From positions 1 to 13,700 of IMG/VR virus record IMGVR_UViG_2603880148_000005: DNA of 13,700 bases; one strand, given 5' to 3'. The notes beneath the pieces were generated by a model that made no database searches, was not told the origin of the DNA, and saw only the letters and a program-made list of their open reading frames with translations. Source of the stretch: a virus. Taxonomy: Duplodnaviria > Heunggongvirae > Uroviricota > Caudoviricetes. Below are positions 11,381 through 11,487 of this stretch, in pieces (within the stretch, counting starts at the first letter, position 1; every line of letters begins with the position of its first letter). A program made the translations under genes and the position numbers.

Positions 11381-11410
11381 TGTTCACCTCATGTGATGTC
11401 ATCACGATCA

Positions 11411-11480
11411 TTAATAGCATTGTTATTTTTAAAAGTAAATAGCATCACTATTTCAAAGAGATTAATAATCTTATTAGAAT
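11411..11480. promoter_or_regulatory. OR-like region: two 17-bp operators with divergent PR-like and PRM-like promoters
   Basis: Operators TAATAGCATTGTTATTT (11412-11428) and AAATAGCATCACTATTT (11437-11453), centres 25 bp apart. Minus strand: TTTACT-N17-TATTAA (PR-like, -10 at plus 11411-11416). Plus strand: TTCAAA-N17-TAGAAT (11452-11480), which would start transcription at or next to the repressor ATG (leaderless, as for lambda cI). Confidence 0.5.
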
Positions 11481-11487
11481 TGAAGGT

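What the first reader, a model, noticed from the sequence alone, without database searches (positions are those of the whole stretch)
11381..11487. Operator set between repressor and cro: 17-bp sites with consensus (T/A)AATAGCA-N5-(C/T)TATTT
Two near-palindromic 17-mers lie 25 bp apart between the divergent genes, overlapping a PR-like promoter on the minus strand and abutting a PRM-like promoter whose predicted start coincides with the repressor ATG. This mirrors lambda OR1/OR2 and the leaderless cI transcript, but with a different half-site sequence. Two further palindromes (GTGATGTCATCAC at 11391-11403 and GATTAATAATC at 11459-11469) are unexplained.
Basis: seen in the sequence. Interest (0 to 1): 0.45.

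Follow-up and report, generated by a model that had tools for sequence, protein, structure and literature searches.

The report
Prophage repressor operators, lambda-style switch
The two 17-bp sites are real and are very probably the binding sites of a lambda-like prophage repressor and its Cro partner, part of a five-site OR/OL operator system that is an unstudied immunity variant of a well-known kind of genetic switch.

Summary
Confirmed and extended. The window is the immunity region of an E. coli lambdoid prophage. On the + strand lies repressor–PaaA2–ParE; on the − strand lies YdaS(Cro)–YdaT(CII). This is the layout of the studied CP-933P paaR2 switch.

The two 17-mers are at 11412-11428 and 11437-11453, 25 bp apart. 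The true consensus is WAATAG-N5-YTATTT. A second pair, also 25 bp apart, lies 1.1 kb away at 12535-12551 and 12560-12576. It sits after the parE terminator, on a PL-like promoter that aligns base-for-base with PR.

Nine non-identical loci were compared, with repressor identity from 100% down to 42% and different cargo genes. All keep OR1/OR2, a weak third site inside PRM, the OL pair, the spacings, and a −10 element 6-7 nt before the repressor ATG. The Cro leader diverges.

The half-site core AATA is invariant in 71-72 of 72 half-sites. The recognition helix TQGAVSHY is invariant too. The repressor has a lambda-CI-like N-domain and a PaaR2-like C-domain, with no S24 protease.

GTGATGTCATCAC is not conserved. 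The operator sequence differs from CP-933P and lambda, and no paper or phage record carries it. This is a new member of a known kind. No binding has been tested.

The parts
11412..11428 (.). OR1-type operator TAATAGCATTGTTATTT. It overlaps the spacer and the -10 of PR.
   Evidence: 24.1 bits with the leave-window-out matrix. Mean column identity 0.91 across 9 loci.
11437..11453 (.). OR2-type operator AAATAGCATCACTATTT. It overlaps the upstream edge of the PR -35 and the first 2 bp of the PRM -35. Its centre is 43 nt before the repressor ATG.
   Evidence: 22.4 bits. The centre-to-ATG distance is 42-43 nt in all 9 loci.
11460..11476 (.). OR3-position candidate site GATTAATAATCTTATTA, inside PRM (spacer plus start of the -10). 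It is weak in this window.
   Evidence: It lies 23 bp after OR2 in 8 of 9 loci and 24 bp in one. Relatives carry GATTAG-N5-CTATTA; mean column identity is 0.86. In the window it scores only 1.8 bits, which is not significant on its own.
11452..11480 (+). PRM-like promoter TTCAAA-17-TAGAAT. The predicted start is at 11487/11488, the A of the repressor ATG, giving a leaderless mRNA.
   Evidence: The -10 lies 6-7 nt before the ATG in 9 loci. The analogous paaR2 mRNA was shown to be leaderless.
11411..11439 (-). PR-like promoter: -35 TTTACT (11439->11434), 17-bp spacer, extended -10 TGcTATTAA (11419->11411). The predicted start is near 11404.
   Evidence: Read. It aligns position by position with PL (I1). 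It is not listed by the scan.
12535..12551 (.). OL2-type operator TAATAGCACTGCTATTT, overlapping the PL -35.
   Evidence: 22.4 bits. Present in all 9 loci.
12560..12576 (.). OL1-type operator AAATAGTAGTGGTATTG, overlapping the PL -10.
   Evidence: 19.4 bits. Present in all 9 loci.
12549..12577 (+). PL-like promoter TTTACA-17-TATTGT with a TG extension, just after the parE terminator (12502-12519).
   Evidence: Conserved as TTGACA/TTTACA ... TATTGT in 9 loci.
11488..11988 (+). Repressor, 166 aa. It has a lambda-cI-like five-helix HTH N-domain (residues 1-90), a disordered linker (93-112) and a PaaR2-like two-helix C-domain. There is no S24 peptidase domain.
11105..11380 (-). Cro-analogue (YdaS-like HTH, 91 aa). 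Its recognition helix TQGMVSHV resembles the repressor's TQGAVSHY.
10696..11121 (-). YdaT (CII analogue), 88% identical to CP-933P YdaT.
12006..12487 (+). paaA2-parE toxin-antitoxin pair, co-transcribed with the repressor.

Best explanation
The 17-mers are operators of a lambda-type bistable immunity switch.

Dimers of the 166-aa repressor bind OR1 and OR2 through a lambda-cI-like helix-turn-helix N-domain. Binding is probably cooperative, through the PaaR2-like helical C-domain. These sites cover the -10/spacer and the -35 edge of PR, so the repressor shuts off ydaS(cro)-ydaT and the replication genes. The same protein binds OL1 and OL2 on PL, 1.1 kb away, and shuts off the other early operon.

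Repressor at OR2 is centred about 42-43 nt before the PRM start. From there it is positioned to stimulate its own leaderless transcript, which carries repressor-paaA2-parE. The weak OR3-position site inside PRM would allow PRM shut-off by the Cro-like protein or by excess repressor.

Shown here: the existence of the sites, their statistics, symmetry, geometry and conservation; the protein homologies.

Inferred: who binds which site, cooperativity, activation, OR-OL looping, and the leaderless start.
For: 1. Four strong sites and no others occur in 13.7 kb.
2. PR and PL have identical site-to-promoter geometry.
3. Nine loci with repressors 100-42% identical keep OR1-OR2 at 25 bp (24 in one), OR2-OR3 at 23 (24 in one), OL2-OL1 at 24-27, and OR2 centre to ATG at 42-43.
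4. Half-site positions 2-5 (AATA) are invariant in 71-72 of 72 half-sites. The central 5 bp and the Cro leader drift. Column identity is 0.85-0.91 in the sites against 0.60 in the leader.
5. The sites persist where the cargo is HipA-like, HigBA or absent, and where the C-terminal part differs. They therefore track the N-domain/Cro pair, not the toxin-antitoxin pair.
6. The N-domain matches lambda cI (phmmer 1e-9; Foldseek TM 0.93, rmsd 1.1 A, including the operator and sigma-region-4 complexes 1LMB and 1RIO).
7. Helix 3, TQGAVSHY, is invariant in 22 clusters.
8. The sister system CP-933P has the same gene order, 25-bp repeat spacing and an OL about 1 kb away. Its PaaR2 and YdaS footprint on OR, PL is repressed by both, and paaR2 mRNA is leaderless (PMC8630535).
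Against: No binding, footprint or 5' end has been measured for this repressor or these sites.

The predicted PR -10 (TATTAA) is non-canonical and relies on a TG extension.

OR3 in this window is not distinguishable from AT-rich background by matrix score (1.8 bits; P about 0.3). Part of its conservation is explained by the PRM -10.

The repressor and Cro genes are always co-inherited in the loci sampled, so comparative data cannot say which of the two reads which site.

Oligomerisation is extrapolated from PaaR2, which shares only the C-domain (47% identity).
Confidence: 0.85

Rival explanations
1. The sites are read mainly or only by the Cro-like YdaS protein. The 166-aa protein would bind elsewhere, or would recognise only a subset of the sites.
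For: The Cro homologue is co-inherited with the sites in all nine loci, and its helix 3 is also conserved. In CP-933P, YdaS footprints on the same intergenic region.
Against: In lambda, 434, P22 and CP-933P both proteins share the operators (established knowledge). The two recognition helices here are alike (TQGAVSHY and TQGMVSHV). The 17-bp dyad length matches lambda cI N-domain dimers. This rival is really a refinement of the main reading, not an alternative to the operator reading.
Confidence: 0.07
2. The repeats are a by-product of PR and PL being duplicated, homologous promoters with AT-rich or UP-like sequence. They are not protein-binding operators.
For: PR and PL align over about 40 bp (I1). 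Parts of each site coincide with the -35 and -10 hexamers.
Against: Each 17-mer is internally dyad-symmetric, which a promoter does not require. The symmetric outer positions are the invariant ones, while the centres drift. The halves that lie outside the hexamers are equally conserved. The symmetry is maintained independently in nine diverged loci.
Confidence: 0.03
3. The sites are autoregulatory operators of the PaaA2-ParE toxin-antitoxin complex, as in canonical type II systems.
For: The operon carries paaA2-parE directly after the regulator.
Against: PaaA2 (63 aa) matches only the toxin-binding 'stability determinant' model and shows no DNA-binding domain. The sites persist in loci with HipA-like or HigBA cargo, or none at all. 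In CP-933P the regulator is PaaR2.
Confidence: 0.01
4. The palindromes are targets of a host nucleoid or global regulator such as H-NS, IHF, Fis or CRP, acting on an AT-rich intergenic region.
For: The intergenic region has 27% G+C against 49% for the window. TGTGA...TCAC at 11392-11405 looks superficially like a CRP site.
Against: The CRP-like element has a 5-nt rather than a 6-nt spacer and is absent from the relatives. The 17-mers do not resemble host-factor consensus sequences. They occur only at the two early promoters of the prophage.
Confidence: 0.02

Closest known systems
CP-933P (Sp12) immunity switch of E. coli O157:H7: paaR2-paaA2-parE2 / ydaS-ydaT with OR, PL/OL and PRE (Jurenas et al. 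2021, PMC8630535; Prolic-Kalinsek et al. 2023, PMC9986795)
   Same: The gene order is identical. YdaT is 88% identical. PaaA2 and ParE families are present. The repressor C-domain is homologous (47% over 87 aa, E 8e-23), and YdaS is 42% identical. The intergenic regions are 107 bp here and 108 bp in CP-933P as annotated in the record read (the paper gives 97 bp), both with repeats 25 bp apart and a second operator set about 1 kb away after parE. The -10 abuts the repressor ATG. A YdaT box lies at the ydaS/ydaT junction (11111-11128).
   Different: The DNA-binding domain of the repressor is unrelated at sequence level: lambda-cI-like here, a different HTH in PaaR2. The operator sequence differs completely: AAATAGCA-N-TGCTATTT here, against the GTTTAGTAA / ACAAT..ACTGT type there. 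The matrix finds no site in the CP-933P locus. The two prophages should therefore be heteroimmune.
Bacteriophage lambda OR/OL with cI, cro, PR, PRM and PL
   Same: The operators are 17-bp and pseudo-symmetric. OR has three positions spaced 25 and 23 bp here, against 24 and 23 in lambda (lambda values from established knowledge). Two sites cover PR, and the middle site is centred about -42 of PRM. The repressor mRNA is leaderless. A distant OL set is present. The N-domain is homologous (37% identity). Acidic residues align with lambda E34 and D38 of the positive-control patch (E33 and E37 here; read from the alignment; inference).
   Different: The half-site is AAATAGCA rather than TATCACCG. 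Only two OL sites are detected. There is no S24/LexA-type autocleavage C-domain, so RecA-driven induction is not expected. Cro and CII are replaced by unrelated YdaS and YdaT proteins. Toxin-antitoxin genes occupy the rexAB position.
CI of Stx2a phages of the Lys12581Vzw type, and 'DicA' of Rac-SA53 (nearest phage-borne N-domains)
   Same: The N-domains are 52-55% identical. Their cI-cro intergenic regions carry related dyads, for example CAATAGTCTAGCTATTT and CAATAGTCAGACTATCT.
   Different: Their C-domains differ (S24 in the Stx phage). The sites score much lower with the matrix (8-14 bits). These phages' operators are not, to my knowledge, characterised either.

Membership tests
Lambda-type tripartite OR / distant OL immunity switch | Divergent repressor and cro-type genes separated by about 100 bp that holds both promoters | tested here: met
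Lambda-type tripartite OR / distant OL immunity switch | Repeated pseudo-symmetric operators of about 17 bp overlapping PR and PRM, with spacing just over two helical turns | tested here: met
   OR1 and OR2 are strong and 25 bp apart.
Lambda-type tripartite OR / distant OL immunity switch | A third site (OR3) over PRM | tested here: inconclusive
   The position is conserved, and relatives carry GATTAG-N5-CTATTA. The window copy scores only 1.8 bits.
Lambda-type tripartite OR / distant OL immunity switch | A second operator set on the other early promoter (OL/PL) | tested here: met
   Sites at 12535-12551 and 12560-12576 on TTTACA-17-TATTGT. Only two sites are seen, not three.
Lambda-type tripartite OR / distant OL immunity switch | Repressor and Cro actually bind these sites, with opposite order of preference | not testable with these tools
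   Needs EMSA or footprinting.
Lambda cI / LexA-type repressors (HTH N-domain plus S24 autopeptidase C-domain) | A lambda-cI-like five-helix HTH N-domain | tested here: met
   phmmer E 1e-9. Foldseek TM 0.93, rmsd 1.1 A.
Lambda cI / LexA-type repressors (HTH N-domain plus S24 autopeptidase C-domain) | A Peptidase_S24 C-domain with an Ala-Gly cleavage site | tested here: not met
   Pfam finds only HTH_3 and HTH_31. The C-domain is two helices homologous to PaaR2.
PaaR-PaaA-ParE three-component module (CP-933P type) | An operon of regulator, PaaA2-family antitoxin and ParE toxin, divergent from ydaS-ydaT | tested here: met
PaaR-PaaA-ParE three-component module (CP-933P type) | A regulator homologous to PaaR2 over its full length | tested here: not met
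   Only the last roughly 87 residues align. The HTH domain belongs to another lineage.
PaaR-PaaA-ParE three-component module (CP-933P type) | Operators of the CP-933P sequence type | tested here: not met
   The motifs differ.
Leaderless repressor mRNA (lambda cI from PRM, paaR2) | Transcript 5' end at the A of the ATG | not testable with these tools
   Only the geometry can be read: the -10 ends 6-7 nt before the ATG in 9 loci and there is no usable SD. 5' RACE is needed.

The most novel reading that the evidence does not exclude
The conserved OR3-position element (GATTAG-N5-CTATTA in relatives, GATTAA-N5-TTATTA here) may not be a weak copy of the repressor site. It may be a distinct sequence read preferentially by the YdaS-type Cro. 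The switch would then separate its two regulators by site sequence rather than by graded affinity for one consensus. Alongside this, the repressor family swaps C-terminal modules freely (PaaR2-type helices, a whole second HTH protein, other short tails) and lacks any RecA-cleavable domain. That implies an induction route, if there is one, that is not SOS autocleavage.
Probability: 0.2. Interest if true: 0.45.

Novelty: new member of a known kind. Interest (0 to 1): 0.3.

Why it matters
It defines, by sequence alone, the operator code (AAATAGCA-N-TGCTATTT) and the full five-site layout of an uncharacterised immunity type. This type is carried by about 1.3% of complete E. coli genomes, including O104:H4 and O145:H28 strains.

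It gives a natural heteroimmune partner to the experimentally studied CP-933P switch. The two share YdaT, the toxin-antitoxin pair and the repressor C-domain, but differ in DNA-binding domain and operators. That makes it a clean system for testing how specificity and oligomerisation modules are recombined in prophage repressors.

It does not reveal a new principle.

Tried and rejected
GTGATGTCATCAC (11393-11405):
- As an extra operator: it is not conserved, even in the 89% relative.
- As a 5' RNA hairpin of the PR transcript: -3.6 kcal/mol, z +0.63, no better than shuffles.
- As a CRP site: the spacer is 5 nt, not 6.
- Two 6-1-6 palindromes in the 107-bp spacer are unusual on shuffling (P 0.0024). 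One of them is explained by the OR3 position.

Other checks that led nowhere:
- Identity with PaaR2: rejected. PaaR2 starts MQKKE, has 133 aa as annotated in the record read, a different HTH and different operators.
- Identity with an O157 PaaR1: no O157 genome appears among the 30 of 72 carrier genomes that were listed. The PaaR1 sequence itself was not available, so this is unresolved.
- A third OL site, or further strong sites elsewhere in the window: none scored 13 bits or more. The best other hit is 6800-6816 at 12.6 bits, inside a methylase gene, and is treated as chance.
- Literature search for the operator string with 'operator' and 'repressor': only unrelated primer hits.
- Phage records: no phage in the collection has this repressor above 55% identity.
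- A second operator class in loci with tandem-HTH repressors: none seen by repeat analysis.

Full report
**What is there**

The window is the early region of an E. coli lambdoid prophage. On the − strand, reading leftward from 11380, lie:
- a 91-aa HTH protein (11105-11380);
- a YdaT-family protein (10696-11121);
- DnaT/O-like and P-like replication genes, DUF1627, DUF977 and a QueH-like gene;
- a restriction-modification pair, DUF968, RusA, antiterminator Q and a methylase.

On the + strand from 11488 lie a 166-aa HTH protein, a PaaA2-family antitoxin (12006-12197), a ParE toxin (12197-12487), a terminator (12502-12519), and then a DUF1391 gene and others.

This is the layout of the CP-933P immunity region of E. 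coli O157:H7. There, PaaR2, YdaS and YdaT were shown to act as analogues of CI, Cro and CII (PMC8630535).

**The observation**

The two 17-mers are at 11412-11428 (TAATAGCATTGTTATTT) and 11437-11453 (AAATAGCATCACTATTT), 25 bp apart. With 'GCA' included and N5 it would be 19 bp. The correct form is WAATAG-N5-YTATTT.

Exact matches to that pattern number four in the window, against 0.01 expected from shuffles.

The same 17-mer recurs at 12535-12551 (TAATAGCACTGCTATTT) and 12560-12576 (AAATAGTAGTGGTATTG), again 25 bp apart. This is immediately after the parE terminator, on a promoter-like site TTTACA-17-TATTGT with a TG extension, pointing rightward.

The − strand of the cro-proximal pair reads AAATAGTGATGCTATTTACTTTTAAAAATAACAATGCTATTAATG. 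This aligns position for position with the + strand of the distal pair, TAATAGCACTGCTATTTACATAATTAAATAGTAGTGGTATTGTT (inverted repeat I1). PR and PL therefore share one design. One site overlaps the upstream edge of the −35, and one covers the spacer and the −10. That is what operators which occlude RNA polymerase look like.

**Comparative test**

The repressor was searched against the protein collection, and the DNA around eight progressively more distant relatives was fetched. These were:
- 89, 83 and 77% identical 166-aa proteins;
- 244-255-aa proteins sharing the N-domain;
- 153-154-aa proteins at about 50% identity, one of them from Salmonella.

All nine non-identical loci carry:
- two strong sites 25 bp apart (24 in one);
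- a third, weaker element 23 bp further on (24 in one);
- a pair 24-27 bp apart on a TTGACA/TTTACA…TATTGT promoter after the end of the repressor operon;
- the OR2 centre 42-43 nt before the repressor ATG.

Among 72 strong half-sites, positions 2-5 (AATA) are invariant in 71-72. Position 6 is G in 45, position 7 is C in 60 and position 8 is A in 49.

Column identity is 0.91, 0.85 and 0.86 in the three OR sites, against 0.60 in the Cro leader. Within the sites, the outer 6+6 positions (0.91-0.94) are more conserved than the central five (0.64-0.84).

A weight matrix built without the window picks out exactly the four sites in the window, at 19.4-24.1 bits. The 99th percentile of the shuffle maximum is 17.4.

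The cargo behind the repressor varies: PaaA2-ParE, a HipA-like pair, HigB-HigA, or nothing. OL sits 0.5 to 3 kb away accordingly. The sites therefore follow the repressor N-domain/Cro pair, not the toxin-antitoxin genes.

**The proteins**

Residues 2-90 of the repressor match the lambda cI N-domain (phmmer 1e-9; 37% identity).

An AlphaFold model built from a 22-sequence alignment has mean pLDDT 77.6. It gives five N-terminal helices, a disordered linker (93-112) and two C-terminal helices. The N-domain superposes on lambda cI with TM 0.93 and rmsd 1.1 Å. The matches include the operator complex 1LMB and the sigma-region-4 complex 1RIO.

The helix-3 segment TQGAVSHY is invariant across 22 clusters, down to 46% overall identity. 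This fits the invariant AATA core.

From the alignment, Gln32 and Gln44 align with lambda Gln33 and Gln44, which read position 2 of the lambda half-site. Position 2 is A in both systems. Glu33 and Glu37 align with lambda's positive-control residues Glu34 and Asp38. These structural assignments are inference from established lambda knowledge.

The C-terminal 50-87 residues are homologous to the C-terminus of PaaR2 (47% identity, E 8e-23), which is reported to octamerise. No S24 peptidase domain is present.

The Cro-like protein is 42% identical to CP-933P YdaS. Its helix TQGMVSHV resembles that of the repressor, as expected if both read the same operators.

**Mechanism proposed**

- Repressor dimers occupy OR1+OR2 and OL1+OL2 and block PR and PL.
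- From OR2, centred about −42/−43 of PRM, the repressor can stimulate PRM (TTCAAA-17-TAGAAT, 11452-11480).
- The PRM −10 ends 7 nt before the ATG, so the repressor–paaA2–parE mRNA is probably leaderless. The relatives keep 6-7 nt and have no usable Shine-Dalgarno sequence. For paaR2 this was proven by 5′ RACE and N-terminal sequencing.
- The OR3-position element (11460-11476) lies in the PRM spacer and −10. It would mediate PRM shut-off by Cro or by excess repressor.

None of these bindings has been measured for this element.

**The two 'unexplained' palindromes**

GATTAATAATC is the left part of the OR3-position element. In relatives this element reads GATTAG-N5-CTATTA, whose right half is a perfect consensus half-site. 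In the window the copy is degenerate. At 1.8 bits it is not significant on its own.

GTGATGTCATCAC sits at about +1 to +12 of the predicted PR transcript. It is absent from all relatives, and as RNA it folds no better than shuffles. I treat it as chance or as strain-specific.

**Relation to known systems**

Architecture and logic are those of lambda and, more closely, of CP-933P. The CP-933P locus shows the same 25-bp repeat spacing and an OL about 1 kb away after parE2.

The repressor's DNA-binding domain and the operator sequence differ from both, and the matrix finds nothing in the CP-933P locus. The two prophages should therefore be heteroimmune.

The immunity type occurs in 72 of 5426 complete E. 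coli genomes. It occurs in no phage record. No paper in the library carries the operator string in a relevant context.

**Verdict**

It is extended here to a five-site OR/OL system. It is a new member of a well-understood kind, of modest interest.

Noticed in passing
window 11111-11128: TTGATTTTCATGAATCAC lies at the ydaS stop / ydaT start. It differs by one base from the TTGATT-N6-AATCAA inverted repeat footprinted by CP-933P YdaT (PMC9986795). It is probably the YdaT (CII-analogue) site of a PRE-like promoter. The YdaT here is 88% identical to the studied one.
   Followed up: partly
L008 2501-3268, L010 2501-3235, L012 2501-3253 (proteins P0013-P0022): The 244-255-aa relatives consist of the same lambda-like N-domain fused to a complete PaaR2-like protein (a second HTH plus the C-domain). 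They are tandem-HTH repressors. The window's 166-aa protein looks like this form with the second HTH deleted. No second operator class was seen by repeat analysis. The called starts of L008 and L012 are probably 30 nt too far upstream.
   Followed up: partly
L010 3287-4860; L013 3112-3839; window 12006-12487: The slot directly behind the repressor gene carries different addiction or defence-type cargo in different relatives: PaaA2-ParE, a HipA_2 + DUF3037 pair, HigB-HigA, or nothing. The operators and promoters stay the same throughout.
   Followed up: no
window 4904-6920 and 578-1627: The prophage carries an NgoMIV-type restriction endonuclease gene overlapping a C5 cytosine methyltransferase gene. 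A separate N6/N4 DNA methylase lies near the Q antiterminator.
   Followed up: no
window 7099-7785: A QueH-like (epoxyqueuosine reductase) gene is embedded among the prophage replication and nin-region genes (Pfam E 1e-65).
   Followed up: no
window 13346-13693: An IS3-type transposase fragment (rve domains) on the - strand runs off the window end. It interrupts the PL-side early operon shortly after the DUF1391 gene, which suggests the prophage is defective on that side.
   Followed up: no
window 12586-12700: The PL leader downstream of OL1 is shared at 85-98% identity with thousands of E. coli genomes that lack this repressor. It is a widely exchanged module boundary right next to the immunity-specific operators.
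   Followed up: no
L015 2390-2494 and L016 2361-2467: The cI-cro intergenic regions of Stx2a phage Lys12581Vzw and of Rac-SA53 (N-domains 52-55% identical) contain related dyads (CAATAGTCTAGCTATTT, TATTAG-N5-CTAATT). This points to a wider operator family built on A(A/T)TAG half-sites.
   Followed up: partly
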